From: Thermoplasmata archaeon M9B1D
GTDB taxonomy: Archaea; Thermoplasmatota; E2; DHVEG-1
Assembly (NCBI GenBank): GCA_002900535.1
Contig: MUGC01000001.1
Location: forward strand, 1-35,238
DNA length: 35,238 nucleotides
Direction: 5' to 3'
Shown here one piece after another: positions 16,503 to 35,238 of this stretch. The notes under the pieces were generated by a model. That model worked only from the letters and a program-made list of their open reading frames with translations. It was not told the DNA's origin and searched no databases. The translations under genes were made by a program, and so were the position numbers. The first letter of the stretch is position 1. Each line of letters starts with the position of its first letter.

Positions 16503-17357
16503 TTATAAGAAAATAATTATAGTTGTTTCTCTATCATTAATAGACCATTTCGCAGGAGCTAATCCATGTTTATAAAACTGTCCATTTGGATACTTAAAAG
16601 TTCCATTTTTTGTACTTATTTGTTTATTCATTTGAATTGATTGAGGACGAGTTCTATTGTCCAATGTTGAAATCATTTGTATTCTAACATTGCCAAAACC
16701 ATTAGCCTTTAATTCTTCAAATCTTTTATATTGTTGTAAAGATGCCATGCGCATACTTTCTGTTCTTGCTATTCTATAAGTACGATAAATATGGCCGTTT
16801 GTTCTCGTCAATTTGCCTTCTTTTAAGAGATTTAAAGTTTTTCTTGTGATTTTTCCGTGTCTGTCTCTAAAACCAAATTCAATATCTAATAATTTTGTTG
16901 TTTTTTCTATAGAAAATCCTTTATCTAAAGAATTTTCAATTATTTTTGTTGTTCTTAAAGCTAAATTTTTACTTCTTTTTAAAATTGATTTATTACTTAA
17001 AATATGATTAGTTATTCTAAATTCATAAGTTGTTGGAAATTTTTTTAAATTATCTATTTTTAAAAAAGTTAATTTTCTTTTTAGTGTATTTTCTATTAAA
17101 AATTTGCTTTCAATTGATGATTGATTATAGGAATTTAAAATTGATTTTTTTATTTTTTTAAACATATTGAAATATTTTGAAATAATTATTTTTTCAATTT
17201 GTCTAATTTGAATTTTAGACATATTAGGTTTCAATCTTTTTCTAATTAATCTTCTTATTTCTGATATAGTTTTAAAAGATAAAATATTTATTAACGCTAT
17301 TCTTTCTATCTCTTTTTTTCTTATCTCTTTTTGTTCTTTCTTTTTTGGAGTTAGCAT
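16503..17357 (-). CDS. Head morphogenesis protein, Mu F / SPP1 gp7 family
   Basis: YRTYRIARTESMRMASLQQY...STLDNRTRPQSIQMNKQ fits the Phage_Mu_F domain. It lies directly downstream of the portal gene. Confidence 0.8.
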   Translation of the reverse strand: MLTPKKKEQKEIRKKEIERIALINILSFKTISEIRRLIRKRLKPNMSKIQIRQIEKIIISKYFNMFKKIKKSILNSYNQSSIESKFLIENTLKRKLTFLKIDNLKKFPTTYEFRITNHILSNKSILKRSKNLALRTTKIIENSLDKGFSIEKTTKLLDIEFGFRDRHGKITRKTLNLLKEGKLTRTNGHIYRTYRIARTESMRMASLQQYKRFEELKANGFGNVRIQMISTLDNRTRPQSIQMNKQISTKNGTFKYPNGQFYKHGLAPAKWSINDRETTIIIFL

Positions 17358-18739
17358 TATAAATTTTCATTATCTAAATCAGGTAAACTATCCATAGCTT
17401 CTTTTTCTGATAATTTCGCCAATTCTTCTGCTTTATCTTCGGAATAACCGGAACGTCTAAATATCTCTTTTTGTGGTAATCTTCCCCCAGCCCTTAAAAT
17501 AGCTTCTAAATCTGCAAGTTCATCTTTTGGCTTATTTCTTGGGAATTCGTAATTTATTTCAAAAGTATCATATTCAGAAATAGAATTTACATCAAGTCCA
17601 GTCCAATAGCTCTTTAAAAGTTCATCTAATTCCTGTAAACTTTTTTTCCATTCCATTTCGGTATTTTTAGAATCATTTTCAAGAAGTCTAAATAATTGAT
17701 TTATTTGAAAGGCTGTAGCATTTTTTAAAGTACTTAAAGCTTTTGGGTCAATGCTCGAAGAAACGACCCAAATTCCATTCCAAACATATTCTAAAACAAG
17801 CTTAACAAATTCGGGATTAATATCTTTAGTAATAAATTTTGCTTCAGAATTTTCGGAATCAGCGATTATCACGCCAGTTTTTTCCATTTCTTTTTTGGTC
17901 TTTTCGTCAATAAGTCCCATATTTTTTAATAATAAATATGCTTGTCTGAAAGTAGCCGATTCAGTAGAATTATCGCTCGCCAATCTATCCCATGTATCAA
18001 GCAAAGTAATAGCTTTTTCACTATTTCCTCTACATTTATTATTATTTTTCCATTCAATTACAGGATTTTTAGTAAAGCCATGCGGACTTTGTTTAGATAA
18101 AATTATAGAATTGTTTGTTTGTTTGTTTTTTGATTTTTTATATGTATATTCATATACATTGGTATTATCATAAATCCATATTATTTTATCTTTATCTTCA
18201 TCTTTTTCATAAGAATAAATTACAGAATATAATTTCTCGTCTGTTTTTTTATCTTTTATAATTAAACAATTATAATTTTTGATTTCTTTGATTTTAACTC
18301 CACCATTATATAAAAAATTTAATGTGTATGTATTTCCTGTTGCTGATACATTTTCCATTAAAGTTTTTAGAAATGATTTGGTATAATTTATTCTATCAAA
18401 TTCTTTATATTTATTTTTAACTTCATCTTTAATATTTTCACTATAAACTCTTGTAATATCCCCGCCTAAATATCCGGCTTTTGTATTAGCAATTAAAGAA
18501 AATAAATCAAATGACATTTTAATATTTGGGTCAGCATCAGTAATTTTTTCTCTAACCAAAATAGGAACACCATCAGCTTTTTTGGGGTCGTCCCATTCAA
18601 ATTTACTTGCTTTTTTTCCTTCAAGACGTCTATTTTGTCCCCATTTTTCACAATCAAATTCTCTTTTATCATCAATTGTTCTTATTATTAAATCAGTATT
18701 TATTTTTATTTTTTTTGCTTTTTTATCCATAAAAATCAA
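17357..18739 (-). CDS. Portal protein (SPP1 gp6-like)
   Basis: 460 aa. NPVIEWKNNNKCRGNSEKAITLLDTWDRLASDNSTESATFRQAYLLLKNMG matches the gp6-type portal core pattern. A MuF-like gene follows. Confidence 0.85.
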   Translation of the reverse strand: MIFMDKKAKKIKINTDLIIRTIDDKREFDCEKWGQNRRLEGKKASKFEWDDPKKADGVPILVREKITDADPNIKMSFDLFSLIANTKAGYLGGDITRVYSENIKDEVKNKYKEFDRINYTKSFLKTLMENVSATGNTYTLNFLYNGGVKIKEIKNYNCLIIKDKKTDEKLYSVIYSYEKDEDKDKIIWIYDNTNVYEYTYKKSKNKQTNNSIILSKQSPHGFTKNPVIEWKNNNKCRGNSEKAITLLDTWDRLASDNSTESATFRQAYLLLKNMGLIDEKTKKEMEKTGVIIADSENSEAKFITKDINPEFVKLVLEYVWNGIWVVSSSIDPKALSTLKNATAFQINQLFRLLENDSKNTEMEWKKSLQELDELLKSYWTGLDVNSISEYDTFEINYEFPRNKPKDELADLEAILRAGGRLPQKEIFRRSGYSEDKAEELAKLSEKEAMDSLPDLDNENL

Positions 18740-21700
18740 GCCTCCCTTGCAGTAATTGTAGCCGTTAAATCTTCATTATATCTAATATTTATAATAACAC
18801 ATTCAAATATAGGATTAACACCTATATCAAAAATATCTCCCTTATAATAAAAATCTTCAGAAATGCCTTTTATCATACCAGCACCTCTAATATTTCCATC
18901 ATAAGCAATAGGTGATATTTCAATTTCATCTTTAAAACCATCATTTAATACATTAAAAACTTTAATTTGTGGAATTTCATTTGTAAAGTCTAAAGAACGA
19001 ATTGTTATTTGAGAATTTTTTTCAATTTGAATAAATGAATAAAGTTTAAATCCTATTAAATTCCCACCACTTAAAATAAGTTCTTTAATCAATCCAGTAC
19101 TTTCTTTCTCTAAATCACATGTATTAGAAATATAAATCCTATCATAAAGTTTTAAACTTAAAGCTTCTAAATTAACAGAAAATTCAAATACATTTCTTTT
19201 TTCTTGAATCAATTTTAAAGCATAAGTTCCTAATTTAATAACAGAAGATTTATCAGTTAAAAATTGATAATCAGTTTTTATAATTTGATAATCAACATCA
19301 CTTGTGCCAGATTTTGGTATTTGATAAACATTATCATCATAATAATATAAAGTTATTTCATCTTCTGAATAATCATCATTATTTATAAATCCAATTCTCA
19401 AAGCATCTGTTAATCTTCCAATTTGTGGAGTCCATTTAAAATTGAAAGAATTATGTTGATTAAATAAATCAATTGGTTCTTTTGAAGGGTTATCAATTAC
19501 AAAATAATATTTTCCGTTATAAAAAGTAAATGAAGCTTGACAATTTGATAATAAAGTTTGAATTAATTCTAAAATTTTAAATTGTTCTGATATAATTCCA
19601 TCAACATAATAATCTTCAGTTTCACACCAATTATATAATTCTACAAGAGAATCATTATCAATGCTATCAATGCTTTCAGCACGAGGGTTTATTAAATCAT
19701 TTGTGAGTAAATCTCTTATTATACTTGCAGGATTACGAGTTTCTGCTGTTGTAGACCAATTTGTGCCATCCCAAATGGGCAATTCTGATTTAGCCAAATA
19801 ATTATATTGTCTTAATGTACCTGATAATGAGCCATAAGCTATCGCTTCAACTGAAATTTGGTTTACATTAGGTAAAATTGTTTCATCAATTACATCTCCA
19901 TCGACATAAAAATTAAATTCACTTAAAACAGGATAACCAATATCAAAATTTGTTTTTTCATACAAATCCGCCGATGAAACCTTTATTGTATATTTATCTT
20001 TTGTTAAAGTCATTCCTATTGTTCTAAAAAATAATTCGTCAGCTTGATTTATATTATCAGGTGGACTAAAAGAAACTATTGCTCCGTTCACAGTGGTTGT
20101 CGAGGAAGATAAAGGTTGTTTATTCCCATTAATATCTCTTACATATAAAGTTGCTGTATCTATATCCTGAAAAGACCCTGATTGTGTTTTATATTTAACA
20201 TTAATTGACGCAATTCTCGACTCTCTTCCCCCATCGCTTTTTTGTTTATAAAGACCAACTGGAAAAGCGATTATTATATCTATATCTGTTGTATCATCAG
20301 GGCTTGTCTCAAGAACTTCTGAAACAACACCTATATATTTATTTATAGGATTATTTATTGTGTAAGAATCATTGAATAAATCTGTTGTCAATTCTTCTTC
20401 AACAATTTCTACTTCAAGACCATCTTCAACTTCTTCAGGCAAAATCCTTGTGTCTGTCGTAGCAAAAAATCTTGTCTCAATTATTCCTGAAATATTTTGA
20501 GTCCAAGTTTTTGTTCCTATGTATCGATAAGTTGTACCTCCTACTAAAACTAAATCACCGAATTCTATTAAATATGTTTGTGATAAAGTAATTTCTGATG
20601 GAGTCGGCAAAGTATCATCTAAAATATCAACTTCAATTTTAAAATTTTTATCACTAAAATTTGAACTATCAACATTTGTAAATTCTAAAATAAAATCATA
20701 TTGTAAATAAGTAGAAACTCCGCCGGTCATTTGAGTAACTAAATAACCATCTGGCAAATTTGCGTCAAGAGTGAATTCGTTTCCTTCCGCTCCCTTAGAA
20801 TCATAAATAATTATTAAAGTATCTGAACCATTATTTGAATAAGTTGCAGGGGTTACAAGAGGATTAGTTGAAGCATTTAAAACCGCTACTGTGTTATTTA
20901 ACGCAGTTAATAAAGTTGTACCTATTGCAATTTCAGTCGGACTTCCAGCAGTAACAACATAAGTAAAAACAACACCGTTTATAGTAATTGTCGAACCCAC
21001 ATTCGGTTTTATACCATACCAAATAGATCCTTGAGCATAACCTTCAACATTTTGATTATAAACTTCATTTGAAATTTCAAAAACTTCTTGTGTAATATCA
21101 ACTGATAATTGCTCTTCTCGTGGAACAGGTTTGACATTATCAAAACCTATAAAAGAACTTCCACCATAAGATTTATTTATATCTAAAAAATTACTGGAAT
21201 AAGACCCAACATTTGTCTCTCCAATTTTTTCATTATAAATATTAACATTATCATAATTTGATATAAAGTATTGTCTATATTTATTAGTAGATGAACCATC
21301 AGCAATAAGCCTATATGGATATTGCGCATAAAAAGGAGTTTGTATAGTTTCACCAAAAACATAAGGTAAAATTGATTTTGAAATCGTATTACTTGCTCCT
21401 TTAATTTCTGGTGGTTGAGATGTACCTTGACCTTCTTGAGGCGAAATTCTAAAAGATGGAGGTTTTATAGGAAACAATAATTTTGTTAAAGCAGAAACAG
21501 AACCGCCAATTATCAAACCAGCACCTATTTGTGTCAAAATGGGATTTCCTGTTGCGATTCCCGCAACAACTAAAACAGCACCAACAACAATTGTAAAGAC
21601 ATCAGCGACAAAATCTCCTTCAGGAGATTTAATATATTCACAAATATCACCTTCTTTTAATCTATATCTTGATTTTTTCTTTTTTCCATTTACATAAACA

Positions 21701-21876
21701 AATTTTAATTCTTCTTTTGTAAATAATTTTTTTAATTTTATTCCAGCACATCGTTTTCCTTTTATTTTTTCATTTAAAAGAACCTTTTCACGAAAAAAAA
21801 CAATTCCTCGTGGTCTTCTTAAAATAAATCTTTTTATTTCACTAAAAAAATATAAAATTTCATCAATTATATACAT
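18736..21876 (-). CDS. Fused tail assembly protein I-like / host specificity protein J-like central tail fibre
   Basis: Residues ~1-185 parallel lambda gpI (FTIVVGAVLVVAGIATG...GAGLIIGG...LFPIKPP...ILPYVFGET). The C-terminal part parallels gpJ (IWDGTNW...NPASIIRDLLTN...LYNWCE...). Confidence 0.8.
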   Translation of the reverse strand: MYIIDEILYFFSEIKRFILRRPRGIVFFREKVLLNEKIKGKRCAGIKLKKLFTKEELKFVYVNGKKKKSRYRLKEGDICEYIKSPEGDFVADVFTIVVGAVLVVAGIATGNPILTQIGAGLIIGGSVSALTKLLFPIKPPSFRISPQEGQGTSQPPEIKGASNTISKSILPYVFGETIQTPFYAQYPYRLIADGSSTNKYRQYFISNYDNVNIYNEKIGETNVGSYSSNFLDINKSYGGSSFIGFDNVKPVPREEQLSVDITQEVFEISNEVYNQNVEGYAQGSIWYGIKPNVGSTITINGVVFTYVVTAGSPTEIAIGTTLLTALNNTVAVLNASTNPLVTPATYSNNGSDTLIIIYDSKGAEGNEFTLDANLPDGYLVTQMTGGVSTYLQYDFILEFTNVDSSNFSDKNFKIEVDILDDTLPTPSEITLSQTYLIEFGDLVLVGGTTYRYIGTKTWTQNISGIIETRFFATTDTRILPEEVEDGLEVEIVEEELTTDLFNDSYTINNPINKYIGVVSEVLETSPDDTTDIDIIIAFPVGLYKQKSDGGRESRIASINVKYKTQSGSFQDIDTATLYVRDINGNKQPLSSSTTTVNGAIVSFSPPDNINQADELFFRTIGMTLTKDKYTIKVSSADLYEKTNFDIGYPVLSEFNFYVDGDVIDETILPNVNQISVEAIAYGSLSGTLRQYNYLAKSELPIWDGTNWSTTAETRNPASIIRDLLTNDLINPRAESIDSIDNDSLVELYNWCETEDYYVDGIISEQFKILELIQTLLSNCQASFTFYNGKYYFVIDNPSKEPIDLFNQHNSFNFKWTPQIGRLTDALRIGFINNDDYSEDEITLYYYDDNVYQIPKSGTSDVDYQIIKTDYQFLTDKSSVIKLGTYALKLIQEKRNVFEFSVNLEALSLKLYDRIYISNTCDLEKESTGLIKELILSGGNLIGFKLYSFIQIEKNSQITIRSLDFTNEIPQIKVFNVLNDGFKDEIEISPIAYDGNIRGAGMIKGISEDFYYKGDIFDIGVNPIFECVIINIRYNEDLTATITAREA

Positions 21877-22223
21877 TTAACCCCCTTTATATAATAAAAT
21901 TTACAATATCTATCGGGAATTTTATTTATTTTTGTACCTAAAATTGTCCTATGAATATATTTATTATTTCCTACACAATAACCTATATGTTCATTAATTC
22001 CGCTTTTATGCACAATACAAGTTTTTTTTGGTTCTTTTATTTCTTCAAATAATAAATTAGCTCTTAAATGTTTAGCGAAATCTTTTTCATTTCCTTCTAT
22101 TACAAAAGGATATTTTGGTAAATCTATATTATGTTCTTCTTTAAAAATATCTTGAATAAGAGTCCAGCAATCACATTTGCCGAGTTCATATTTTTTATTA
22201 AAATGTTTCAAATAATTTTTCAT
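21867..22223 (-). CDS. Tail tip protein K-like, NlpC/P60 peptidase fold
   Basis: 118 aa with candidate Cys/His/His residues at GKCDCWTLIQDIF, NEHIGYCVG and KYIHRT. It occupies the position of lambda K. Confidence 0.7.
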   Translation of the reverse strand: MKNYLKHFNKKYELGKCDCWTLIQDIFKEEHNIDLPKYPFVIEGNEKDFAKHLRANLLFEEIKEPKKTCIVHKSGINEHIGYCVGNNKYIHRTILGTKINKIPDRYCKFYYIKGVKCI

Positions 22224-22714
22224 AAGTATAAATTTGGAAATAAATTTTTATTATATCTTATTGTGCCTATATTATAACCTATTGACAATATAAGATTGAT
22301 ACCTAAATTAATTTGCGTTTTATCAATATCTAAACTAATAACTTCAAAAGTTCCTCTATCATATTTTTCAGAAATTAAATTGCCCGATGTATCTCTTTCT
22401 ATATGAGCCAAATATATTTTACATTGTATATTTTTATTTTTATAAGAACTTTTAACCGCTTCTCTTATTTTATAAGTTAATTGTCTATCAATATTCGCTA
22501 TACCTATAGAAGTTCCAGAATTTTCACCTTGCGTATTGAAAAGCAATTTAAAAGGTAATCCTAAATATTCATTACTATCAATTGTGATAGTTTTATTATT
22601 ATTTATAAATCTATAAGTTTCCAACCAAGAAGAATGGGAAAATTCAAGCAAAATATATAAACCTCTGCCTAAATATCTACTATATGCTGATTTTTTTAAT
22701 TCAAATTCGCTCAT
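22220..22714 (-). CDS. Minor tail protein L-like
   Basis: 164 aa, the second gene after the tape measure. EYLGLPFKLLFNTQGENSG..IGIANIDRQ resembles the gpL/DUF1833-type pattern. Confidence 0.5.
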   Translation of the reverse strand: MSEFELKKSAYSRYLGRGLYILLEFSHSSWLETYRFINNNKTITIDSNEYLGLPFKLLFNTQGENSGTSIGIANIDRQLTYKIREAVKSSYKNKNIQCKIYLAHIERDTSGNLISEKYDRGTFEVISLDIDKTQINLGINLILSIGYNIGTIRYNKNLFPNLYL

Positions 22715-23160
22715 ACAATTAATTCTTTGGTTGCTACAAGATTTTCTCCGCCTTCAGTCAATAAATATTCTCCGCCTTCAGTCAATAAAGAATAATCGAC
22801 ATAAATTTTAGTCTGTTCTAAAGATAATTTAACTTCTATTTGATAATAATTTGAAACTTGTCTATATAAAGGTTTATCAAGAAATCTTGCAGTTCTGTCA
22901 ACTTCAATTCTGCAATCATAAAAAGTAAATGGTATAGTTCCTTGTTTTATTGTATTTCTATACCAGCTTTTAAAATCTAAATAATCTTCTAAAGAAACTA
23001 TTATATAACCTTTTATTATATTATCTATATCTGTAAAAGTTTCTCTTCTAAATGGTTGTCCAGCGTCTGGAGAGACTTCAATAAATCCGTTTTGGTCTTC
23101 GTCTTGAAAACTATTTGATAATAAATCTCCCCATCTCCATTTTTCTAAAATTTCTGTCAT
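22711..23160 (-). CDS. Minor/distal tail protein (lambda M position)
   Basis: 149 aa, the first gene after the tape measure, with an ATGA start/stop overlap. Confidence 0.5.
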   Translation of the reverse strand: MTEILEKWRWGDLLSNSFQDEDQNGFIEVSPDAGQPFRRETFTDIDNIIKGYIIVSLEDYLDFKSWYRNTIKQGTIPFTFYDCRIEVDRTARFLDKPLYRQVSNYYQIEVKLSLEQTKIYVDYSLLTEGGEYLLTEGGENLVATKELIV

Positions 23161-24983
23161 GATGCTTGTACTCCTCTTAAATCTTGATTTTGTAAAGCGG
23201 TTTCAAAAGCGCTTTTACTTCTTTCACTTGATAAAGCACTATTAAATTGTTTTATGAAAATATCTCTGTCATTATTTGGTCTTTTTATAACTTCAATTTG
23301 AGATGGTGTTTGGTTAAAAATATTTATATTTCCACCTCCGCTTGTTTCAACTCCAAGCTTTCCATTTTTAGTTCTTGTCAATGGTAAAATAGCTTCTGCC
23401 CCAGCCTCTCCCATTAAACCAATTCCTTTTTGCATTGGAAATAAAGTAGGAGAACTTACAACACCACCATTTGCGAAAGGCATTACTTTATTATCTTTAA
23501 ATACATTTCCTTTTGCTGATGGCGTAGATGCTATTCCAGTTGCTCCACCTCCGAAAATATTAGCAATACTTCTTGCAATTCCAGTTGCAATAAGTTGCCT
23601 TGCGATTTCTTGTAAAATTCCTATTATCACTTTTTTAAATCTCTCTCCAGCTGTTTCACCTTGTTCAAAAGGTGTTGTCAAGGCATTTGCTAAATCATTT
23701 CCGATTATATTTGCTACATCGTCAATTGAAATTAAAGCCTCTTGAAATTTCGTCGCACTTTCAGCTAATTTTAATTGTTCTTCATTTGCTTTTAATTCTT
23801 TTCTTAAATTTTTAAAAGTTTCAGTTCCTTGCTGACCTGTAATAGCTAAATCTCTTAATTGTTCTTTGATTTTTTCTGTTTGTTCTTTTAATTTATCATA
23901 AGTTAAAATTGTTGATTCTTGAATTTCAATATTATCATTTGCATATTTTCCAGCGTCTCCAATATTTCTTAAATCATCTGCAGTTTTAACATCGCCAAAT
24001 TCATCTAAAGCCTTTTTAAGATTTCCTATATCTTTAATTAAATAATTAAAATTAAAAGTTGTTGCTCTTTGTAAAACTTTAAGAGAAATTGTAAAAACTT
24101 TTATTGAATCTATTATTATTTTAAAAGTTTTGACTAAATCATCGCCTTCATTATCAACAAAATCTCTTATTGAGATTGCCATACTTTCCAATTCAGGAAC
24201 TAATTGTTGACCTAAACTATCTTTCAATAAAAGAATTGAATTATTTAAACGATTAAAATTAGCTCTTGCTGATTGTGAAGCTTCTTCAACATTTATACCC
24301 AAACTCTTTCTTATTTCTTCCGCAAAAGTAGGTAAAAAATCTTTTGATACTATTTCTCCAGTTTTAATTAATTTAAAAAATTCTTCTCTACTTTTTCCTA
24401 AGGAATCTATAGCTAATTGTACAGCACCTGGTAAGGTATCACCAAGTTGACCACTTATTTCTTCTAAAGAAACTTTGCCTTTACCAGCAACTTGTTGTAA
24501 TGCTCTAAATACAAAAGATGTTTCTGTGGCACTTAAATTTAATGAAACTAAAGCATCAGAAACATCAGAAAATATTTCCTTTGTTTCTTCAAAAGTTAAA
24601 CCACTTCTTAATGCTGATGCGCTAAATCCTGCAAATCCATCAATAGCACTTCTTAAATCAATACCTAATCTTTGTGCCTCATCTGATATAAATTGATAAG
24701 ATTGTCCAGCAAGTTCAGCACTTCCTGCAGAGGCTAAAAGTTTATTATCTAAAGCTTCTAATTCAAGAGAAGTATTTATGAGTTCTTTTCCAAAAGTAAT
24801 AATTTGACGAACACCAAAAGCAATACCTAAAGTTTTTAATGAATTTTTTAAAATTTTAGCTGTAGAATTTAATTTTTTAGCACTTTTCCCAGTTTTATTT
24901 ATAGAATCATCAAGCTTTCTAAATTGAGAAGCGACAGACTCCGCATTTGTTACAATTATAATTCTTACTTTTCCATCTGCCAT
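23157..24983 (-). CDS. Tape measure protein
   Basis: 608 aa, long, helical and low-complexity, with a Gly-rich C-terminal segment. It lies immediately after the G/GT chaperone pair. Confidence 0.85.
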   Translation of the reverse strand: MADGKVRIIIVTNAESVASQFRKLDDSINKTGKSAKKLNSTAKILKNSLKTLGIAFGVRQIITFGKELINTSLELEALDNKLLASAGSAELAGQSYQFISDEAQRLGIDLRSAIDGFAGFSASALRSGLTFEETKEIFSDVSDALVSLNLSATETSFVFRALQQVAGKGKVSLEEISGQLGDTLPGAVQLAIDSLGKSREEFFKLIKTGEIVSKDFLPTFAEEIRKSLGINVEEASQSARANFNRLNNSILLLKDSLGQQLVPELESMAISIRDFVDNEGDDLVKTFKIIIDSIKVFTISLKVLQRATTFNFNYLIKDIGNLKKALDEFGDVKTADDLRNIGDAGKYANDNIEIQESTILTYDKLKEQTEKIKEQLRDLAITGQQGTETFKNLRKELKANEEQLKLAESATKFQEALISIDDVANIIGNDLANALTTPFEQGETAGERFKKVIIGILQEIARQLIATGIARSIANIFGGGATGIASTPSAKGNVFKDNKVMPFANGGVVSSPTLFPMQKGIGLMGEAGAEAILPLTRTKNGKLGVETSGGGNINIFNQTPSQIEVIKRPNNDRDIFIKQFNSALSSERSKSAFETALQNQDLRGVQAS

Positions 24984-25599
24984 TAAAAACCTCTAAAATT
25001 AGTCAACTCACATAAAGTTCTTATTCCTATTGCAATATTACAAGGTAAATCTTGTATATTTAATTTTAACATTCCTATTCTAAACCATCGCCAAATCTCG
25101 AAAACTTCATAAAATTCATTATCTAAATTTTTCCATAAATCTTTTTTCTTTCCGATTGCCACAGGATTTTTAACATCACCTAAAAAATACATTCTATTTT
25201 CTTCTCGCTTTTCAAGTTTAATTTTTCCTTTTTTAAGAATATGAAAAGCGATTATAACTTTTTTTCGGTTTTATTCGCCTCCTTAATCGCATCAGTTAAG
25301 GATTTAACAACTTCAAGAACAATTTTAAAAATATCTTTTCCGCCAAGTTTTAACATATCGGAAAAATTCTCATAATCAATTTCTTTACCATCTTCATTAA
25401 TCAATTGTGGTTTATTTTCAAATCTTAAAAATAAATCACATGCAATTTTCAAAACACTTTCATGATGATTTTCAGAAGTTAATAACAATTTAGTTGAGTC
25501 AAATTGATTTGGATAACGAAAAATAATTTTAAATTTATCATTATCTTTACAAATAGACGGAATTATTGCGATTTCTTTAGTAAATACATTTATTTTCAT
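24983..25599 (-). CDS. Tail assembly chaperone GT-like fusion made by -1 programmed frameshift (~205 aa)
   Basis: The -1 frame is open from 25270 to the stop at 24985-24983, which I checked codon by codon down to the track ORF 24983-25192. Its end overlaps the tape-measure ATG (TAATG). Confidence 0.65.
25252..25599 (-). CDS. Tail assembly chaperone (G-like, zero-frame product)
   Basis: 115 aa between the tube and tape measure genes. It ends just after a slippery heptamer. Confidence 0.75.
   Translation of the reverse strand: MKINVFTKEIAIIPSICKDNDKFKIIFRYPNQFDSTKLLLTSENHHESVLKIACDLFLRFENKPQLINEDGKEIDYENFSDMLKLGGKDIFKIVLEVVKSLTDAIKEANKTEKKL
25258..25264 (-). promoter_or_regulatory. -1 frameshift slippery heptamer A_AAA_AAG
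   Basis: On the minus strand, GAA AAA AAG TTA TAA. The heptamer A AAA AAG is in the X_XXY_YYZ phase of the zero frame and lies two codons before the stop. Confidence 0.65.
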
Positions 25600-25600
25600 T

Positions 25601-26269
25601 TTATACTACTGGTTGACTTAATTTAAAATAAGATGGTTTAACTTCATCATCTTCAACAATTCTAAAGTTTGAAGAAAATGTTTGCGCTTCCCCTTGAGAA
25701 ATTCCCGCGCTAAATCCACCCAAAACAACCGGTAATAAATAGAATGATGTTGGTTCATCATTTATTGATTCTTTATTTACCTCTAATTGCAAATAAATTT
25801 TTGTATTATCTATTTTTGAAATAATTAAAGTTGATAAATCTGCTGATTGGCTTACTATATCTATAACTTTATTCATAAAGCTATTTGCTAAATCCGTCAA
25901 TCCGACAGTCATTACACCTTCTATAGTTCCCGTGATATCTGAACGACCAAATTTATAAGTTTTAACTCTATCACAAATTGTTGTATCTTCAATTTCATCT
26001 TTTGCAAATTCGAGACTTGCATTTTGAACATCACATAAATTTGTAAATGTCATTGGTTTTACTTTATCGCCTGTTTCAGGTGTAATGCCTGTATCAGAGT
26101 AAAAAGGATATCCTGCCTCTGCATTTGTTGGTAAACCTGATGGACTTCCTACTGCAGTTATTACATAATAACCAGCGCTTAAAGGAGTCACACCATCACC
26201 TTCTATTTCAGCACCGAGCGACACACTCGCAAGGTTTCCGTCTAATTCATTCAATTTTTTTGTACTCAT
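25601..26269 (-). CDS. Major tail (tube) protein
   Basis: 222 aa, upstream of G/GT. NASLEFAKDEIEDTTICDRVKTYKFGRSDITGTIEG resembles lambda V/TP901-1 tube N-domain patterns. Confidence 0.75.
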   Translation of the reverse strand: MSTKKLNELDGNLASVSLGAEIEGDGVTPLSAGYYVITAVGSPSGLPTNAEAGYPFYSDTGITPETGDKVKPMTFTNLCDVQNASLEFAKDEIEDTTICDRVKTYKFGRSDITGTIEGVMTVGLTDLANSFMNKVIDIVSQSADLSTLIISKIDNTKIYLQLEVNKESINDEPTSFYLLPVVLGGFSAGISQGEAQTFSSNFRIVEDDEVKPSYFKLSQPVV

Positions 26270-26673
26270 TATTGTACCTCATAAGTTAAAGTTTTTGATA
26301 AAATTTCACTATTTAATCCATTAGCCCAAACCCCAGCCGTAGAATTATCGTGAGTAGTTAAATAAACTATGTAATCTTTTCCATCAAAAGTCAATTTTTT
26401 TATAGCAGAAATAAATTTATCAAGCTGTCTTTTGATATAAAAAGCATTTGAAATATTTTTATGATAAATAGTCCATTGTAAAGAAGCAATACCACCTTTT
26501 GTAAATTGATTATCTGCGCAAACATCTGGACGACTTCCATCTGCATCTAAAGAATTTTGAATAATATAAGGATATTGATTATCTTCTCCAATATCTCCAA
26601 AACCAAATTTTAAAGTAAATCCTGATACTGTAAAATTATTTTTTATATAATCGTAAATTGCTTGTTCAAACAT
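26269..26673 (-). CDS. Tail terminator / tail completion protein (DUF3168-like, by position)
   Basis: 134 aa between the gp10-like and tube genes. The N-terminal segment is IYDYIKNN. Confidence 0.5.
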   Translation of the reverse strand: MFEQAIYDYIKNNFTVSGFTLKFGFGDIGEDNQYPYIIQNSLDADGSRPDVCADNQFTKGGIASLQWTIYHKNISNAFYIKRQLDKFISAIKKLTFDGKDYIVYLTTHDNSTAGVWANGLNSEILSKTLTYEVQ

Positions 26674-27012
26674 TTATTTCCTATTAATTATTTTTGCAAC
26701 AATGCTATCAACTTCTTTTTGGACTTTTCTTGCAGAGTTTCGCATAACTGGATTAGGTCTCCGTCCTTTTTTATAAGTAAAAGTTTTAGTTTTATATCCA
26801 GCAGGGAAACCATATTCAACAGCTTTTGAATATTCTGCATTGGCAACAACTTCGCCATTTCCTGCTTTAATATTATTACGATAAAATCCTGTGTCAACTG
26901 GAGAATTTTTTTTTGCTTCCGCTTCTATTCTTGAAGTAATTTTGATAACAGCCTCTTTTATTCCATTTATTGTCAGATTTTCTAAATTGGGGACATTAAC
27001 TTCTATTGGCAT
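26674..27012 (-). CDS. HK97 gp10-family head-tail joining protein
   Basis: ...EAEAKKNSPVDTGFYRNNIKAG...AEYSKAVEYGF fits the gp10-family VDTG.LR.SI...YA..VEYG pattern. Confidence 0.7.
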   Translation of the reverse strand: MPIEVNVPNLENLTINGIKEAVIKITSRIEAEAKKNSPVDTGFYRNNIKAGNGEVVANAEYSKAVEYGFPAGYKTKTFTYKKGRRPNPVMRNSARKVQKEVDSIVAKIINRK

Positions 27013-27358
27013 TTATATTTTTTTCTACATAATTAATTAAATTTTCACCTAAAATAAACATTTCTTTTTCTTTGTCATTAGGAAATTGATAATTATATTT
27101 TTTCTTATGATAATTTCTCATAATTTTTGATATTAAATTTAAAACATCATCAAAACAAACTTCTTTAAATAATTGCATATCTTTTTTACAAACTGGACAT
27201 TGCATTGATTGTTTTTCTAAATCATATCTGTCTTTTGAATAAACAAGTAAAATTGCCTTTCCACAATTTATACAAAATAATTCTTTTTGACTTACTAATT
27301 TTTCATCATCAAGATTAATAATGTTATTATTCATCATTAATTTCTTCCATTGTTTCAT
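26996..27358 (-). CDS. Zinc-ribbon protein, paralogue 2
   Basis: 120 aa: IINLDDEKLVSQKELFCINCGKAILLV...CPVCKKDMQLFKEVCFDDV. It is colinear with the upstream 90-aa paralogue. Confidence 0.7.
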   Translation of the reverse strand: MKQWKKLMMNNNIINLDDEKLVSQKELFCINCGKAILLVYSKDRYDLEKQSMQCPVCKKDMQLFKEVCFDDVLNLISKIMRNYHKKKYNYQFPNDKEKEMFILGENLINYVEKNINANRS

Positions 27359-27367
27359 TATGACTTT

Positions 27368-27640
27368 TTAATTTACTATTATCAAATTCTTTTTTAAAAG
27401 TATATCCGTATTTTCTTCATGTATTTTTTCATTTTGTCTTGCAAGAATATCAAAAACATCGTATAAACATAAATCCTCATATTTTCTTAATTTTTGCTTG
27501 CAAACTGGACATTCTTCATTTGAAGTATCTTCATAATCTTTGGATACCATTATAATACTTTTACAACAATTTATACAAAAAAGTTTTTCAACTTTATGCG
27601 GTGTATTTTTTTCTAAATTTATTATTTTATTTTTTGTCAT
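27368..27640 (-). CDS. Zinc-ribbon protein, paralogue 1 (ATG 27640 preferred; the track start 27658 is TTG)
   Basis: MTKNKIINLEKNTPHKVEKLFCINCCKSIIMV...CPVCKQKLRKYEDLCLYDV. Confidence 0.65.
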   Translation of the reverse strand: MTKNKIINLEKNTPHKVEKLFCINCCKSIIMVSKDYEDTSNEECPVCKQKLRKYEDLCLYDVFDILARQNEKIHEENTDILLKKNLIIVN

Positions 27641-28040
27641 AAACTTTAATTTTATCAATTAAATATTGTGGATTTTTAACACAAATTAAATCAACATGGT
27701 TTCCTATTCCCGATACTCTTATTGTCTCATAACCAAAAATAGAACTAAAAATAGTTTTTCTTCTTTCTATATTTTCAATATTATTTAAAAATAGTTTATC
27801 AACCAAAATATTATTTATTCCGAAAGTTGATTCTATAAAATCTTCATGCAAAAAAATCTTTGAACTTACTCTAATAGCGAAGTCGGTAGGATAATATTTT
27901 ATTATATCAATAATTGGAATAATAACTAAACTAAATAAATATTCCGATGGAAATAAATCAAATATATTCTTTCCTAAAAAATTAAGTATATAAAAAACAA
28001 TAAAAATTCCAAATATTCTTATTATATAGTCTATTGTCAT
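27627..28040 (-). CDS. Membrane protein with two N-terminal hydrophobic helices and a bPH/YdbT-like domain (start uncertain)
   Basis: From ATG 28040: MTIDYIIRIFGIFIVFYILNF...LFSLVIIPIIDII, then ...GYETIRVSGIGNHVDLICVKNPQYLIDKI. The track ORF starts at a TTG at 28121 and overlaps the upstream gene. Confidence 0.6.
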   Translation of the reverse strand: MTIDYIIRIFGIFIVFYILNFLGKNIFDLFPSEYLFSLVIIPIIDIIKYYPTDFAIRVSSKIFLHEDFIESTFGINNILVDKLFLNNIENIERRKTIFSSIFGYETIRVSGIGNHVDLICVKNPQYLIDKIKVYDKK

Positions 28041-28077
28041 ATCTATACAACCAAGAATTTTACAAACTTTTATTTGT

Positions 28078-28314
28078 TCATTTTTTCTTTGCACTTTTTT
28101 TTCTTTTCTTTTTCTTTTCAATACTCCAAACTATTTTTGAACATCTTGTTTTGCTCATTCCACTATCTCTACAAGAAGAATAAGCTTTTTTTGAAGAAGA
28201 CTTTTTTATTCCACGAGGTGCTAAATAATAACCTTTTTTTCCTTTAACAACATTACTTAAAGGAAAACCCAATTTTTTCGCTCTTGCTCGTGCTTTTGCT
28301 TTAGTTTCAGGCAT
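28078..28314 (-). CDS. Small highly basic protein
   Basis: 78 aa: MPETKAKARARAKKLGF...EKKKKRKKSAKKK. The SD is aattggaggttttATG. Confidence 0.65.
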   Translation of the reverse strand: MPETKAKARARAKKLGFPLSNVVKGKKGYYLAPRGIKKSSSKKAYSSCRDSGMSKTRCSKIVWSIEKKKKRKKSAKKK

Positions 28315-28328
28315 AAAACCTCCAATTA

Positions 28329-28673
28329 TTAAACATTTTTATTATAAAATTGTAATTTGAATTCACAATGTTGCCCCTCGTCAGGCTCAATCCCACTAAC
28401 GCCTAAAGGCTGTGATTGTTTACCGCTAACAATATATTTTATTCCTTCATATTCAATCAAATCGTTTTCTTGAATAATAGAATTTAAAGAAATATCGCAA
28501 AATAAAATACCATCAACATTCATGGTATCTTTGGCATTTACAAAAGAATTCCTTGAAGATGGTGTTTGAACAAGACCTTTAAAGGTTTGAATTTTTGAAT
28601 AATCATCAGGTGTTGAGAATTCACCCTCTGTATATCTATATAAATCTATATCCTGATAATAATCATCTATCAT
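28329..28673 (-). CDS. Head-tail adaptor / head closure protein (HK97 gp9-, SPP1 gp16-like)
   Basis: 114 aa. ...FKGLVQTPSS...DGILFCDIS...IEYEGIKYIVSG...HCEFKL fits the Phage_H_T_join pattern. Confidence 0.55.
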   Translation of the reverse strand: MIDDYYQDIDLYRYTEGEFSTPDDYSKIQTFKGLVQTPSSRNSFVNAKDTMNVDGILFCDISLNSIIQENDLIEYEGIKYIVSGKQSQPLGVSGIEPDEGQHCEFKLQFYNKNV

Positions 28674-29422
28674 TGCACAATTCTAACTAATTTATAAGGT
28701 TTTAATTGATTTATTAAATATGATGGATATTCTAAACCACCAATTTTTAAAAAAGTATCATCTTTTTGATAAGAATAATTACCAATTCTTTCAGCTTTTT
28801 TATCTTTTATCTTTCTTTTGAAAGTATCAAAATAAAGCATTTGGCTTATAATTTCTTCAACTTGTTTAGGAATATTGCACAAAAACAAAATGGCGTATTC
28901 CGTAGTAGCTCTTAAATCTTTGTTTGTTATTTTCAAAGGTGATAAGCTTTCGATATAACCTACTATATCATTTCTCAAACTTCCTGCAATTCTTATTAAA
29001 TCCCCTACTTCAAATATATCTTCTGATAAACTATCGATTTCTCCATCAACTTTAAACTCATATTGATTCATATCACTTAAATAATGAATATTATCATTAA
29101 TTAAAGATTGTTTAATGTCCCATTCGCCATAATCAAAAGAAACATTAAAATCTTGTCTTATTTCATAAAAGAAATTGTTCAAATAATCTAAAACAAGCTT
29201 TAAAGTATGATGTAAATTTGCTTCTATTTTTGCGTCTTCAGATGTTTCTATTCTTACAGCAGTAAAGGGACTTACACTTGTTACATTATAAGATTCACCT
29301 TTTGTATAAGTTTCAACATCAAAAAAAGTTTCACTTACAAGCCAAGTTCCAGTTGAAGACGGTTTTGTATTTTGCACAAAATCATAAGAACTATATTTTT
29401 TAACACTATATAAATCTATCAT
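28670..29422 (-). CDS. hypothetical protein (possible head-tail connector, by position)
   Basis: 250-aa ORF between TerL and the adaptor gene. Confidence 0.75.
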   Translation of the reverse strand: MIDLYSVKKYSSYDFVQNTKPSSTGTWLVSETFFDVETYTKGESYNVTSVSPFTAVRIETSEDAKIEANLHHTLKLVLDYLNNFFYEIRQDFNVSFDYGEWDIKQSLINDNIHYLSDMNQYEFKVDGEIDSLSEDIFEVGDLIRIAGSLRNDIVGYIESLSPLKITNKDLRATTEYAILFLCNIPKQVEEIISQMLYFDTFKRKIKDKKAERIGNYSYQKDDTFLKIGGLEYPSYLINQLKPYKLVRIVQ

Positions 29423-29424
29423 GT

Positions 29425-29772
29425 TTATTTATTTTCGTTTTGTTTTTCAATTTCTTCTTTTTTTATCTTTTTTTTGTTTATTCTTTTTTTTGGATATTTC
29501 ATTGCTATTTCAGGTCTTACATATCCTTCTCTTGCTTCTTCTATAACTTCTTCTTTTTTTTCTTTTTCTTTAATCTCTTTTATTTCTTTAATTAAAATTC
29601 CTTCATTCCAACAAACTTTACAATCAATAACTTTATAAAATTCTCTTGTATTTTCTTTATCTGGATAAAATATTTTTCCATCTTTTAACCAACCTTCTTT
29701 TTCATAAGAAGAAACTACAATTTTTTTACCATCAAGTTTTTTTAATTTTCCAATAATTTTAACTTTTTTCAT
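29425..29772 (-). CDS. hypothetical K/E-rich protein
   Basis: 115-aa ORF after TerL. Confidence 0.7.
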   Translation of the reverse strand: MKKVKIIGKLKKLDGKKIVVSSYEKEGWLKDGKIFYPDKENTREFYKVIDCKVCWNEGILIKEIKEIKEKEKKEEVIEEAREGYVRPEIAMKYPKKRINKKKIKKEEIEKQNENK

Positions 29773-29830
29773 ATAAAGCCTTTTTTGTTGATATTAATAA
29801 AAGTCTAAAACTTAAGCTTATAAAGTCAAA

Positions 29831-31246
29831 TTAAAAAGGTCTACTACCGACTAAAACAGTTCTATTTCCGCCTTTCAAATATCTTATTATTGAAGCCAAA
29901 CTATCCGGAGCATCATCATTTTTGGATTTATCATTATAATTTTGACATTGGCTAATATAATTCGGGTCAGTTCCTTGCAAAAAATAAATATCTTTCCAAG
30001 CGGGGTATAAATGAGTCATTATTTTAAGATGTTTATTATCGTGTTCGTGATATGAAATAATATATTTACTCTTTTTTGCATTTTCACCTTTATCATCGTT
30101 TTTTTCAGTTCTTATTTGACCACATTTGTACTTTACACGGTATAACTCTATTTCAGTTAAACAATCATTAATATGTTTTTGCCATAATTTGCCAAATACA
30201 TAAAGATTATTTCCTACTATTTTAATAATTGTAAATGCAGTCCCGTCTTTTCCACCGAAACCTTTATCAATATGTCCGAAACCATTTTCAATTAATTTCT
30301 CTTGTTCTTTTGTAGCAAATTTTAATCCTTTAAAGTTAGAATTTATTTTGCTATCAGGTTCTTGTTGATATTGGGAATTAAAAACCCAAGGCAATCTTTC
30401 TCTTAATTTCTTTAATTTTTTGGTTGATATTTTTTCTTCCCAAATAGATTTTTCATTTTGTAAGGCTTGTATTTTTATTAAATCCCAATCTTTTTTCCAA
30501 TTATCTTTATCTTCTTCTTTTAAACCTTTATTATATTTACCTTCTTTCATAAGATAGCCTGCTAAATCTTCTTCTTTCAATCTTTGCATGATAATAATTA
30601 TAGGAACATCATCTCTTCTTAATCTTGTTCCTAAAGCATTATCGAATTTATAAATACAATCTTCTCTTTTAGTTTCAAAAATAATATCAGTTGCTTTAAT
30701 CGGGTCATCAATTATCATTGCGCCACAAAATTTCTTAACTGCAGGATTACCAGCGTCAAGACCTGTAATTGTACCACCCATTGAACCAGCAGTCAAACCA
30801 CTTCTTCCAATACTTCCAATTATAGACCAATTTGTTTTTGAATCTTTATCTTTTTGAAATTTATATGACCATAATTTACTACAGACTTCTCCTGATAATA
30901 TTTCTTTTATTTCTCCAGAATGTTTTTTAATTAAAGTATCGGAATAAGAAGTATATAAGAAACAATTATTTTTATTTCTTATAAAGCACCATGCGATAAA
31001 ATATTCAACAATAATTGATTTACCAAAACCAACAGGAATATTAATTATTAAATTTTTTATAGTTTTATAATTAGCTCTATCTTCTAAAGCTTTTATTATT
31101 TCATTATGGAAATCTTTAAAAGTAAATTTTGCACCAGTTCTAAATCTATGAACAATCTTAATAAATCCTTTCAATGATTTTTCACAAACTAATTTAACAA
31201 CAGCTTTTTCTTCATCGGTCGGAAAATATTCATCAAAACTTTTCAT
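29831..31246 (-). CDS. terL: Terminase large subunit
   Basis: Walker A is IPVGFGKS. Walker B is GAMIIDDPIK. The coupling motif is IIIMQRLKEEDLAGYL. The C-terminal nuclease motif is NDDAPDSLASIIRYL. Confidence 0.9.
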   Translation of the reverse strand: MKSFDEYFPTDEEKAVVKLVCEKSLKGFIKIVHRFRTGAKFTFKDFHNEIIKALEDRANYKTIKNLIINIPVGFGKSIIVEYFIAWCFIRNKNNCFLYTSYSDTLIKKHSGEIKEILSGEVCSKLWSYKFQKDKDSKTNWSIIGSIGRSGLTAGSMGGTITGLDAGNPAVKKFCGAMIIDDPIKATDIIFETKREDCIYKFDNALGTRLRRDDVPIIIIMQRLKEEDLAGYLMKEGKYNKGLKEEDKDNWKKDWDLIKIQALQNEKSIWEEKISTKKLKKLRERLPWVFNSQYQQEPDSKINSNFKGLKFATKEQEKLIENGFGHIDKGFGGKDGTAFTIIKIVGNNLYVFGKLWQKHINDCLTEIELYRVKYKCGQIRTEKNDDKGENAKKSKYIISYHEHDNKHLKIMTHLYPAWKDIYFLQGTDPNYISQCQNYNDKSKNDDAPDSLASIIRYLKGGNRTVLVGSRPF

Positions 31247-31662
31247 ATTTCTTTTATTTTAGACATAACATTATCTATAATCTTTTCATCTTTTATTTCA
31301 AGATTAGCGTTTATTTGCTCGATTTTTTCAGTTGGTTTTTCGCCTTTAGTATCACGAATAAAAGTAGCATTTTTAGAATTTCCAGAAATTGCTTTAGCAT
31401 ATTGACCTAAAATTAAAGCTGTATCCATACTTATTTCTTCTGGAATGTCACCAACTTCATTTTTTAGATTTTCTTTAATTTCTTTATTTTTAAATTCTAA
31501 TTGCCCAATTATTTCAATAATTTTTCTAAATCTTTTGTTTTCTTTTTGAACTTTATGAGAAGCTTTCGCTCCCATTGAAGTTATCCTCTGTATTTCCTCT
31601 GCAGTTCTTTTATTAAACGGCTTTAAATTTTCAATATGTAATTCAGGATTTGAATTTGCCAT
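31243..31662 (-). CDS. terS: Terminase small subunit
   Basis: 139 aa directly upstream of terL and overlapping it. NLKPFNKRTAEEIQRITSMGAKASHKVQKE resembles the small-terminase N-terminal region. Confidence 0.6.
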   Translation of the reverse strand: MANSNPELHIENLKPFNKRTAEEIQRITSMGAKASHKVQKENKRFRKIIEIIGQLEFKNKEIKENLKNEVGDIPEEISMDTALILGQYAKAISGNSKNATFIRDTKGEKPTEKIEQINANLEIKDEKIIDNVMSKIKEI

Positions 31663-34943: not shown

Positions 34944-35238
34944 AGTTTCCCTCGTAAATTTTGTTAATATTTTTTAAACACCAATCAATATTGGCTTTCC
35001 AATTTCTTGGATTATCTCCATTAAGAAACGAGGATTTATTGACTATTTGGCAAAAAGCTTTCCAATCTTCTATTGACTCAAATAGCGGATTTCCTTTTTT
35101 GTCTTTCAATGTTTTATTTCCTATTAAATTTTTCAAAATTTCATTGCGGGGGGGAGAATTTATTGTAGCTTTCGGAAGAGTTTTGCAAATTTCATTCCAA
35201 ATCGACATTAACTCTAAGATTATATCCCCCCCCTCTTT
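34936..35238 (-). CDS. Junction-spanning CDS, C-terminal part (same gene as 1-501)
   Basis: The track lists only the internal-Met fragment 34936-35208 (MSIWNE...). The frame stays open to the window edge and is in phase with 1-501. The C-terminal FLNGDNPRNWKANIDWCLKNINKIYEGNYD is a motif I have seen at the ends of phage replication-associated proteins. Confidence 0.75.
   Translation of the reverse strand, partial: KEGGDIILELMSIWNEICKTLPKATINSPPRNEILKNLIGNKTLKDKKGNPLFESIEDWKAFCQIVNKSSFLNGDNPRNWKANIDWCLKNINKIYEGNYD
35095..35238. repeat. Terminal direct repeat, right copy (identical to 1-144)
   Basis: Exact 144-nt match read directly. Confidence 0.95.

What the first reader, a model, noticed from the sequence alone, without database searches (positions are those of the whole stretch)
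26996..28314. Four-gene accessory island inserted in the head-tail joining module: basic protein, bPH-like membrane protein and a tandem pair of zinc-ribbon paralogues
The head-tail adaptor gene (28329-28673) and the HK97 gp10-like gene (26674-27012) are normally neighbours. Here four small genes with no structural-protein signature separate them:
- a 78-aa extremely basic protein (MPETKAKARARAKKLGF...KKKKRKKSAKKK);
- a protein with two N-terminal hydrophobic helices followed by a bPH/YdbT-like soluble domain;
- two adjacent paralogues sharing IINL..K.LFCINC.K.I..V...CPVCK...C..DV.

A tandem duplication, a membrane partner and insertion into an otherwise conserved late operon is the usual appearance of phage morons, superinfection-exclusion cassettes or anti-defence cassettes. 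I recognise no described system with this composition.
Basis: partly seen in the sequence, partly recalled or inferred. Interest (0 to 1): 0.62.

Follow-up and report, generated by a model that had tools for sequence, protein, structure and literature searches.

The report
Variable accessory-gene slot in phage late operon
Four small genes of unknown function (a very basic protein, a membrane protein and two related zinc-binding proteins) sit in a spot of a marine-sediment phage genome that related phages leave empty or fill with other genes, so they are optional cargo, not virus building blocks; this is a common kind of phage variation and what the genes do remains unproven.

Summary
Four tightly packed minus-strand ORFs (78, 137/164, 90 and 120 aa) fill 26996-28314, between a conserved 114-aa connector-module gene and an HK97-gp10-like gene. 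The two Cys-rich ORFs are true paralogues (37% identity, E about 1e-11).

About 30 related phages and prophages keep the same flanking genes. The slot between them is empty in 7 loci and holds one unrelated 59-73-aa ORF in most. One relative has a different Cys-rich ORF. The closest relative has a polybasic 46-aa ORF plus an HslV-type peptidase. So this is a hypervariable cargo slot, and the island is unique to this phage.

The zinc-ribbon family is very rare: three other representatives among 1.84 billion, plus one more in IMG/VR. Elsewhere it is single-copy and non-structural, lying upstream of the terminase or at the end of an early block.

The membrane protein resembles bPH_2 (YdbS-like) proteins in architecture, but its scores fall below the curated cut-off.

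No promoter or terminator of its own was found, no integrase, and no match in PADLOC, PDB or BFVD. It is therefore not a classical moron. It is best read as late-transcribed accessory cargo that acts on the infected cell. The function is inferred, not shown. Interest is modest.

The parts
28329..28673 (-). Conserved 114-aa connector-module gene (head-closure position). It is the upstream boundary of the variable slot.
   Evidence: Homologues at 33-62% identity in about 30 related loci, always directly after the 250-aa adaptor-like gene. No Pfam, PHROG or PDB assignment.
28078..28314 (-). Gene A: 78-aa polybasic protein (pI 10.8), with GGAGG 6 nt before its ATG.
   Evidence: ORF and sequence; composition. 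No homologue in the phage collection, PHROGs, Pfam, NCBIfam or PADLOC. No similarity beyond composition to the polybasic ORF in the same slot of L008 (z 0.78).
28095..28102 (-). A8 tract (coding strand) inside the overlap of the end of A with the TTG-started frame of B.
   Evidence: Read directly. The frame of B is +1 relative to A. A slippage-made fusion could not be tested, because only assembled contigs are held.
27627..28121 (-). Gene B: membrane protein, 137 aa from ATG 28040 or 164 aa from TTG 28121. Two N-terminal hydrophobic helices, then an ~85-aa bPH_2-like domain.
   Evidence: Hydropathy 2.0 and 1.4 for residues 1-19 and 28-46. The AF2 secondary structure shows two helices, then strands, then a C-terminal helix, at pLDDT 52. 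PF03703 scores 17.7-18.6 bits against a cut-off of 22. hhalign against five genuine YdbS-like proteins gives P 0.0015, probability 17%. phrog_3707 'membrane-flanked domain' gives E 0.038.
27368..27640 (-). Gene C: 90-aa zinc-ribbon protein (CxxC-x18-CPxC plus a helix). Its ATG overlaps the stop of B by 14 nt.
   Evidence: Family profile hits. The weak Lar-like hit covers only the ribbon (E 0.006).
26996..27358 (-). Gene D: 120-aa zinc-ribbon paralogue with a longer helical C-terminus. Its stop region overlaps the gp10-like start by 17 nt.
   Evidence: 37% identity to C. Full-length homologue P0124, E 5e-9. The AF2 model has pLDDT 72 overall and 80-87 in the core: two beta hairpins plus two helices.
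26674..27012 (-). HK97-gp10-like tail-completion gene. It is the downstream boundary of the slot.
   Evidence: PF04883 above its cut-off; phrog_5, E 2e-16. Conserved in relatives.

Best explanation
The four ORFs are real genes. They are lineage-specific accessory cargo in a recombination-tolerant slot of the late morphogenesis operon of a complete, circularly closed 35.1-kb siphophage genome.

Shown:
- The slot lies between the conserved 114-aa connector gene and the gp10-like gene.
- In relatives it is empty or filled with unrelated genes.
- The cargo has no transcription signals of its own and is translationally interlocked with the structural genes, so it should be made late in lytic growth.
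- The zinc-ribbon family occurs in other phages only outside structural modules.

Inferred:
- The proteins are not virion building blocks. They act on the infected cell.
- B is anchored in the cytoplasmic membrane by two helices, with a bPH-like domain facing the cytoplasm.
- C and D are zinc-stabilised binding modules that diverged after a duplication and recognise a protein or nucleic-acid partner.
- A binds nucleic acid or another polyanion.

My most likely functional guess is a late-acting membrane-associated function. It would protect the infected cell or the progeny, either by blocking DNA entry of further phages or by neutralising a host defence. That last step has no direct evidence.
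For: Synteny:
- The order ad250, hc114, slot, gp10, p134, tail tube is conserved in L005-L040.
- The slot is empty in L005/6, L007, L017, L025, L033 and L040.
- It holds one 59-73-aa ORF in most loci and a different Cys-rich ORF in L038.
- In L008 it holds a polybasic ORF plus an HslV-type peptidase.
- A, B, C and D are absent from all of these loci.

Rarity:
- Only self-hits for B and D among 5.8 billion clusters.
- The C/D profile finds three other proteins among 1.84 billion representatives, and one more appears in IMG/VR.

Context of the zinc-ribbon homologues:
- They lie upstream of the terminase (L044, L047, L076) or at the end of a RecT/SSB early block (L045).

Operon embedding:
- Start and stop overlaps and short gaps.
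- No terminator, and promoter-like sites at the chance level.

Membrane and bPH evidence for B.

Precedent: HK97 gene 15, a small inner-membrane exclusion protein inserted in a tail operon (PMC3594210).
Against: - No functional assignment reached significance. PADLOC gave nothing. Foldseek found no match at E <= 0.001 in PDB or BFVD.
- The bPH_2 score is below the curated cut-off, and the model of B is poor (pLDDT 52).
- GC3 of the island equals that of its neighbours, so there is no sign of recent import.
- Late-only expression is unusual for exclusion proteins, which are mostly early or prophage-expressed (my knowledge).
- Two of the two members of the closest subclade start the slot with a polybasic ORF. 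A might therefore have a packaging or virion-linked role.
- No expression or proteomic data exist.
Confidence: 0.5

Rival explanations
1. C and D (and perhaps A) are small nucleic-acid-binding regulators. They would be zinc-ribbon proteins of the Com/Ogr/Lar size class that tune translation, late transcription or packaging, and B would be an unrelated passenger.
For: Homologues sit directly upstream of the small and large terminase genes, or at the end of early operons, where phage regulators are commonly found. There are weak ribbon-only hits to Com-type 'translational regulator' (phrog_6417, E 0.006; PF10122, E 0.033) and to Lar-like proteins (phrog_6422, E 0.006-0.011). A is polybasic.
Against: All hits are below any curated threshold and cover only the generic CxxC...CxxC ribbon. 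A regulator of late genes placed inside the late operon would arrive late. Related phages do without any such gene at this site.
Confidence: 0.2
2. The island encodes proteins that are packaged into the head or ejected with the DNA, like T4 internal proteins or P1 Dar. A would be a DNA-associated polybasic internal protein, and C and D would be ejected counter-defence factors.
For: The genes are co-expressed with head-completion and tail genes. A is extremely basic. The closest relative also begins the slot with a polybasic ORF. Loci for small basic internal proteins are hypervariable in T4-like phages (my knowledge, not tested here).
Against: A and the L008 polybasic ORF share nothing beyond composition (z 0.78). 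B is a membrane protein and is unlikely to be packaged. Zinc-ribbon homologues elsewhere are in early or pre-terminase regions. No capsid-targeting or protease-cleavage motif could be tested.
Confidence: 0.15
3. The island is a neutral hitch-hiker. It would be ORFan DNA that landed at a permissive gene boundary and is tolerated without contributing a selected function.
For: There are no homologues for A and B anywhere. Several gene boundaries in this phage family accept unrelated small ORFs.
Against: Four long intact frames in 22% G+C DNA, precise start-stop coupling, and invariant Cys and Pro residues kept between paralogues and distant homologues all argue for purifying selection, at least on C and D.
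Confidence: 0.1

Closest known systems
HK97 gene 15 moron (inner-membrane superinfection-exclusion protein; Cumby et al. 2012, reviewed in PMC3594210)
   Same: A small membrane-protein gene inserted between conserved genes of a siphophage late (tail) operon and absent from relatives. It is the best precedent for cargo at such a site.
   Different: gp15 is a single gene with its own promoter and terminator and is expressed from the prophage. Here there are four genes with no signals of their own on a contig with no integrase. There is no sequence similarity.
bPH_2 / 'membrane-flanked domain' proteins (PF03703; YdbS/YdbT of Bacillus subtilis; phrog_3707)
   Same: Two N-terminal transmembrane helices followed by a ~80-aa domain. 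The C-terminal half of B aligns to the family motif. Membrane-anchored bacterial PH families and phage-encoded PHb proteins are described in PMC2817789.
   Different: B scores 17.7-18.6 bits, below the 22-bit cut-off. The N-terminal half of the domain does not align, and no structural confirmation was obtained.
Small phage zinc-ribbon proteins: Lar-like restriction alleviation (phrog_6422), Mu Com (PF10122), FmdB-type ribbons
   Same: Size (70-120 aa) and a CxxC-x18-22-CxxC ribbon. The weak profile and Foldseek matches fall on the ribbon.
   Different: No match reaches significance. The conserved N-terminal strand (IINL / TPHxV) and the post-ribbon helix (DVLxFISR) are specific to this seven-member family.
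Hyperplastic or moron loci of phage genomes, for example loci upstream of the packaging module that carry Tai defence genes (PMC11364771), and T4 internal-protein loci (my knowledge)
   Same: A fixed genomic position with interchangeable, unrelated small genes among relatives. The zinc-ribbon homologues occupy the pre-terminase locus in other phages.
   Different: No Tai homology, and the cargo function here is unknown. This slot lies inside the connector module, not before the terminase.

Membership tests
Moron (as defined in PMC3594210) | Extra DNA present in one genome and absent at the same site in related phages | tested here: met
   The slot is empty or differently filled in about 30 relatives.
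Moron (as defined in PMC3594210) | Own promoter and terminator that allow expression from a repressed prophage | tested here: not met
   0 terminator-like sites; 47 promoter-like sites against 48.1 expected. Start-stop overlaps with flanking late genes. This was a consensus scan only.
Moron (as defined in PMC3594210) | G+C content different from surrounding genes | tested here: inconclusive
   The island is 22.3% G+C against 27.2% for the genome, in the lowest 2.2% of windows. GC3 is 0.11-0.13, the same as the neighbours.
Moron (as defined in PMC3594210) | Carried by a temperate phage | tested here: inconclusive
   No tyrosine or serine recombinase on the contig. Distant relatives are prophages.
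bPH_2 (PF03703, YdbS-like) | Score at or above the Pfam gathering threshold (22 bits) | tested here: not met
   17.7 bits; 18.6 bits.
bPH_2 (PF03703, YdbS-like) | Two transmembrane helices immediately N-terminal to the domain | tested here: met
   Hydropathy peaks; helices 3-21 and 32-49 in the model. The same layout is seen in genuine members L050-L054 and L069.
bPH_2 (PF03703, YdbS-like) | PH-like beta sandwich capped by a C-terminal helix | tested here: inconclusive
   The order of secondary-structure elements is compatible, but pLDDT is 52. Foldseek gave only meaningless matches. hhalign gave P 0.0015, probability 17%.
Zinc ribbon (generic fold) | Two CxxC knuckles on beta hairpins, with all four Cys invariant across the family | tested here: met
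   C29, C32, C54 and C57 are invariant in five sequences. The model has hairpins at 22-41 and 53-63, with core pLDDT 80-87. Metal binding was not tested.
Lar-like restriction alleviation protein (phrog_6422) | Significant full-length profile match | tested here: not met
   E 0.006 (C) and 0.011 (P0125), covering profile positions 6-45 of 120 only. No NCBIfam match to a Lar family model.
Known anti-phage defence systems (PADLOC-DB 2.0) | Match of any of the four proteins to a defence-system model | tested here: not met
   No hit better than E 0.03.
Core virion / head-completion component | Conserved at the same position in all relatives, or homologous to structural families | tested here: not met
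   Absent from all relatives. No structural PHROG or Pfam hit. Zinc-ribbon homologues lie in non-structural regions.
Packaged internal / ejected proteins (T4 IP-like) | Capsid-targeting sequence, protease cleavage site, and presence in virions | not testable with these tools
   Needs virion proteomics. Only the basic composition of A is known.

The most novel reading that the evidence does not exclude
B, C and D (perhaps with A, possibly even fused to B by slippage at the A8 tract) form a previously undescribed late-expressed, membrane-anchored phage system. A bPH-like inner-membrane protein would recruit two diverged zinc-ribbon adaptors to block incoming phage DNA or to disable a membrane-associated host defence. 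The zinc-ribbon family, with about seven members known, would be a new class of phage host-interaction protein.
Probability: 0.15. Interest if true: 0.6.

Novelty: new member of a known kind. Interest (0 to 1): 0.3.

Why it matters
The finding documents, with about 30 comparators, a precise hypervariable cargo slot inside the connector module of a little-studied phage lineage. This lineage has an unusual gene order, with the tail genes between the terminase and the portal. The finding also defines a very rare phage zinc-ribbon family and a candidate phage bPH-type membrane protein. Such slots are where new exclusion and counter-defence genes are usually found, so the cargo genes are reasonable candidates for functional screens. 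As it stands, this is an ordinary example of phage mosaicism, with ORFan content and no demonstrated function.

Tried and rejected
- DNA and protein searches of the INPHARED phage collection with the region and with A, B and D found nothing.
- Single-protein pattern scans of IMG/VR with gp10 and TerL found nothing. A profile of the 250-aa protein did work.
- TerL and D were absent from 40 related genomes and from all 197 genomes of the MAG's class. That fits the MAG being archaeal and the contig being mis-binned.
- Single-sequence AlphaFold of B gave pLDDT 52 and its Foldseek matches are meaningless. A PDB sequence search with B found nothing.
- The model of D (pLDDT 72) gave only generic, non-significant zinc-ribbon matches in PDB and BFVD.
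- PADLOC and NCBIfam were uninformative.
- I tested whether A and the polybasic ORF in L008 or L076 are homologous. They are not (z < 1).
- I tested whether the 59-aa slot ORF of relatives is hidden elsewhere in the window. It is not.
- I tried to assign the 114-aa flank to a connector family with a 14-sequence alignment. There was no Pfam or PDB hit.
- I rejected compositional evidence for recent import, because GC3 equals that of the neighbours.
- I rejected 'classical moron' and 'structural component'.

Full report
**Observation**

The minus strand of 26996-28314 holds four closely packed ORFs.
- A (28078-28314) is 78 aa, pI 10.8, with 28 Lys+Arg. A GGAGG lies 6 nt before its ATG.
- B is 137 aa from ATG 28040. 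It is 164 aa from TTG 28121, the start chosen by two independent gene callers. It has two hydrophobic helices at about residues 3-23 and 33-50, then a soluble ~85-aa part.
- C (27368-27640, 90 aa) starts 14 nt inside the end of B.
- D (26996-27358, 120 aa) follows C after 9 nt and overlaps the start of the next gene by 17 nt.

C and D are 37% identical (E 5.7e-11 genome-wide). They share LFCINC.K, SKD, CPVCK and C..DV. In DNA of 22% G+C, open frames of this length are very unlikely by chance (composition).

The downstream gene is HK97-gp10-like (PF04883 above its cut-off; phrog_5, E 2e-16). The upstream 114-aa gene is conserved in relatives but could not be assigned to any connector family. 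The adaptor-like signal is in the 250-aa protein one gene further up.

**The genome**

The window is a whole contig with an exact 144-bp terminal repeat. A second assembly from a JGI metagenome runs across the junction. It is therefore a complete circular or circularly permuted genome of 35,094 bp. The DNA comes from marine sediment.

The contig is binned in an archaeal MAG: RNA polymerase subunit N is present on another contig. However:
- it encodes an endolysin (phrog_465) and a lambda-like tail tip;
- its relatives are prophages in bacterial Gastranaerophilales MAGs;
- it is the third-strongest tetranucleotide outlier among 52 contigs of 8 kb or more.

The host is therefore probably a bacterium and the binning is doubtful. 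No tyrosine or serine recombinase lies on the contig.

**Synteny**

TerL has hundreds of homologues at 55-70% identity. Loci were fetched through TerL relatives and through a profile of the 250-aa protein. About 30 of them keep the order 250-aa, 114-aa, slot, gp10-like, 134-aa, tail tube, chaperone.

The slot between the 114-aa and gp10-like genes holds:

| Slot content | Loci |
|---|---|
| Empty (gap -22 to +2 nt) | L005/6, L007, L017, L025, L033, L040 |
| One conserved 59-73-aa ORF (..NWKLFGK..REEIY.E.SSEG.PYQI.VTQDY..) | most loci |
| A different 73-aa Cys-rich ORF | L038 |
| Polybasic 46-aa ORF plus a 156-aa HslV-family peptidase | L008 |
| A, B, C and D | this phage only |

L008 is the closest relative, with 62-70% identity in the flanking genes. 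Its peptidase matches phrog_1040 (E 8e-24) and PF00227 above its cut-off.

The 59-aa family is absent from the window. A shares nothing beyond composition with the L008 polybasic ORF. Other gene boundaries in the family also vary: TerL|250-aa, and gp10|134-aa, where L007 has a 65-aa one-helix ORF.

**Nature of the cargo**

A, B and D have no homologues in the phage collection. B and D have only self-hits among 5.8 billion protein clusters.

A profile of the C/D core, searched against 1.84 billion representatives, found only three other proteins (E 5e-9 to 4e-5). A profile scan of IMG/VR added one more. Across these sequences the four ribbon cysteines, a lysine, a valine and the proline of CPxC are invariant. 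An N-terminal strand (IINL, TPHxV) and a post-ribbon helix (DVLxFISR) are also conserved.

In those phages the gene is single-copy. It lies just upstream of the terminase genes (L044, L047, L076) or at the end of a RecT/YqaJ/SSB early block (L045). It is never in a structural module. The region upstream of the packaging module is described as a moron locus in PMC11364771.

The AlphaFold model of D (5-sequence alignment; pLDDT 72 overall, 80-87 in the core) shows two beta hairpins and two helices. Foldseek found nothing at E <= 0.001. The best partial matches are generic zinc ribbons. Weak profile hits (Lar-like, Com, FmdB) cover only the ribbon.

**Protein B**

Several independent but weak signals agree on a bPH_2-like C-terminal domain:
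- PF03703 at 17.7-18.6 bits, against a cut-off of 22;
- hhalign against a profile I built from five genuine YdbS-like proteins: P 0.0015, probability 17%, aligning NIENIE..FGYETIRV..VKNPQYL to the family's conserved C-terminal half;
- phrog_3707 'membrane-flanked domain', E 0.038;
- the family's hallmark layout of two transmembrane helices before the domain.

PMC2817789 describes membrane-anchored bacterial PH families with the domain predicted to be intracellular, and PHb proteins in phage genomes. The single-sequence model is too poor (pLDDT 52) to confirm the fold. I rate membership at roughly two in three. Formally, the threshold is not met.

**Expression logic**

Between 25 and 32 kb there is no terminator-like site, and promoter-like sites are at the chance level. 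All junctions are overlaps or gaps of 9-37 nt. The island should therefore be transcribed with the late structural genes.

The classical moron definition requires its own promoter and terminator, a deviant G+C and expression from the prophage (PMC3594210). That definition is not met. The lower G+C of the island (22.3% against 27.2%) comes from codon positions 1 and 2, and GC3 matches the neighbours.

**Interpretation**

Best supported: late-expressed, dispensable accessory cargo in a hypervariable slot, not virion parts. The mechanism is inferred only. It would be a membrane-anchored bPH-like protein with two soluble zinc-ribbon binding modules and a polybasic protein, acting on the infected cell. 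HK97 gp15 is the nearest precedent for membrane cargo inside a late operon.

Rivals:
- small regulators, suggested by the pre-terminase position of the homologues;
- packaged or ejected proteins, suggested by the polybasic first gene in both members of the closest subclade;
- neutral hitch-hiking DNA.

None can be excluded without experiments.

**Verdict**

This is a new member of a known kind, phage accessory cargo at a hyperplastic locus. It includes a new, very small zinc-ribbon family and has no assignable function. Interest is modest.

Noticed in passing
window 1-144 and 35095-35238: An exact 144-bp terminal direct repeat. A second assembly (L003) spans the junction, so the contig is a complete circular or circularly permuted 35,094-bp phage genome.
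   Followed up: yes
whole window / genome G000: The MAG is archaeal (RNA_pol_N on C199). The contig, however, carries an endolysin (7834-8361, phrog_465) and a lambda-like tail tip, and its relatives are prophages in bacterial Gastranaerophilales MAGs. The phage contig is probably mis-binned; it is tetranucleotide outlier rank 3 of 52.
   Followed up: partly
window 17357-31662: The whole connector and tail module lies between TerL and the portal/capsid genes. L005 and L007 share this order. Phages with TerL that is 58-59% identical (L041, L043) have the usual order, TerL directly followed by the portal.
   Followed up: partly
L008 4263-4870: The closest relative fills the same slot with a 46-aa polybasic ORF (phrog_1375, E 5e-4) and a 156-aa HslV/proteasome-beta-type Ntn peptidase (phrog_1040, E 8e-24; PF00227 above its cut-off). 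This is a phage-borne HslV-like gene inside a connector module.
   Followed up: partly
window 28095-28102: An A8 run on the coding strand lies in the overlap of the end of A and the TTG-started frame of B, which is the +1 frame. Loss of one A in the mRNA would fuse A to B. This could not be tested because only contigs are held.
   Followed up: no
L007 12880-13077; window 29425-29772; L008 2688-3170: Further variable gene boundaries exist in this phage family. L007 has a 65-aa single-helix membrane ORF between gp10-like and the 134-aa gene. Between TerL and the 250-aa gene there are unrelated ORFs of 115, 160, 55 or 0 aa.
   Followed up: no
L009-L039, slot between the 114-aa and gp10-like genes: A conserved 59-73-aa ORF (NWKLFGK..REEIY.E.SSEG.PYQI.VTQDY) with no Pfam or PHROG match occupies the slot in most distant relatives and overlaps the gp10-like start. 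Its function is unknown.
   Followed up: partly
L076 5724-6284: An ORF with a GIY-YIG-looking motif lies between the TerS-like gene and TerL in a phage that carries a zinc-ribbon homologue. I read this by eye and did not test it.
   Followed up: no
P0010, P0052, P0100, P0120 (TerL homologues): Several TerL relatives are 540-820 aa long and carry intein domains (PF14890).
   Followed up: no
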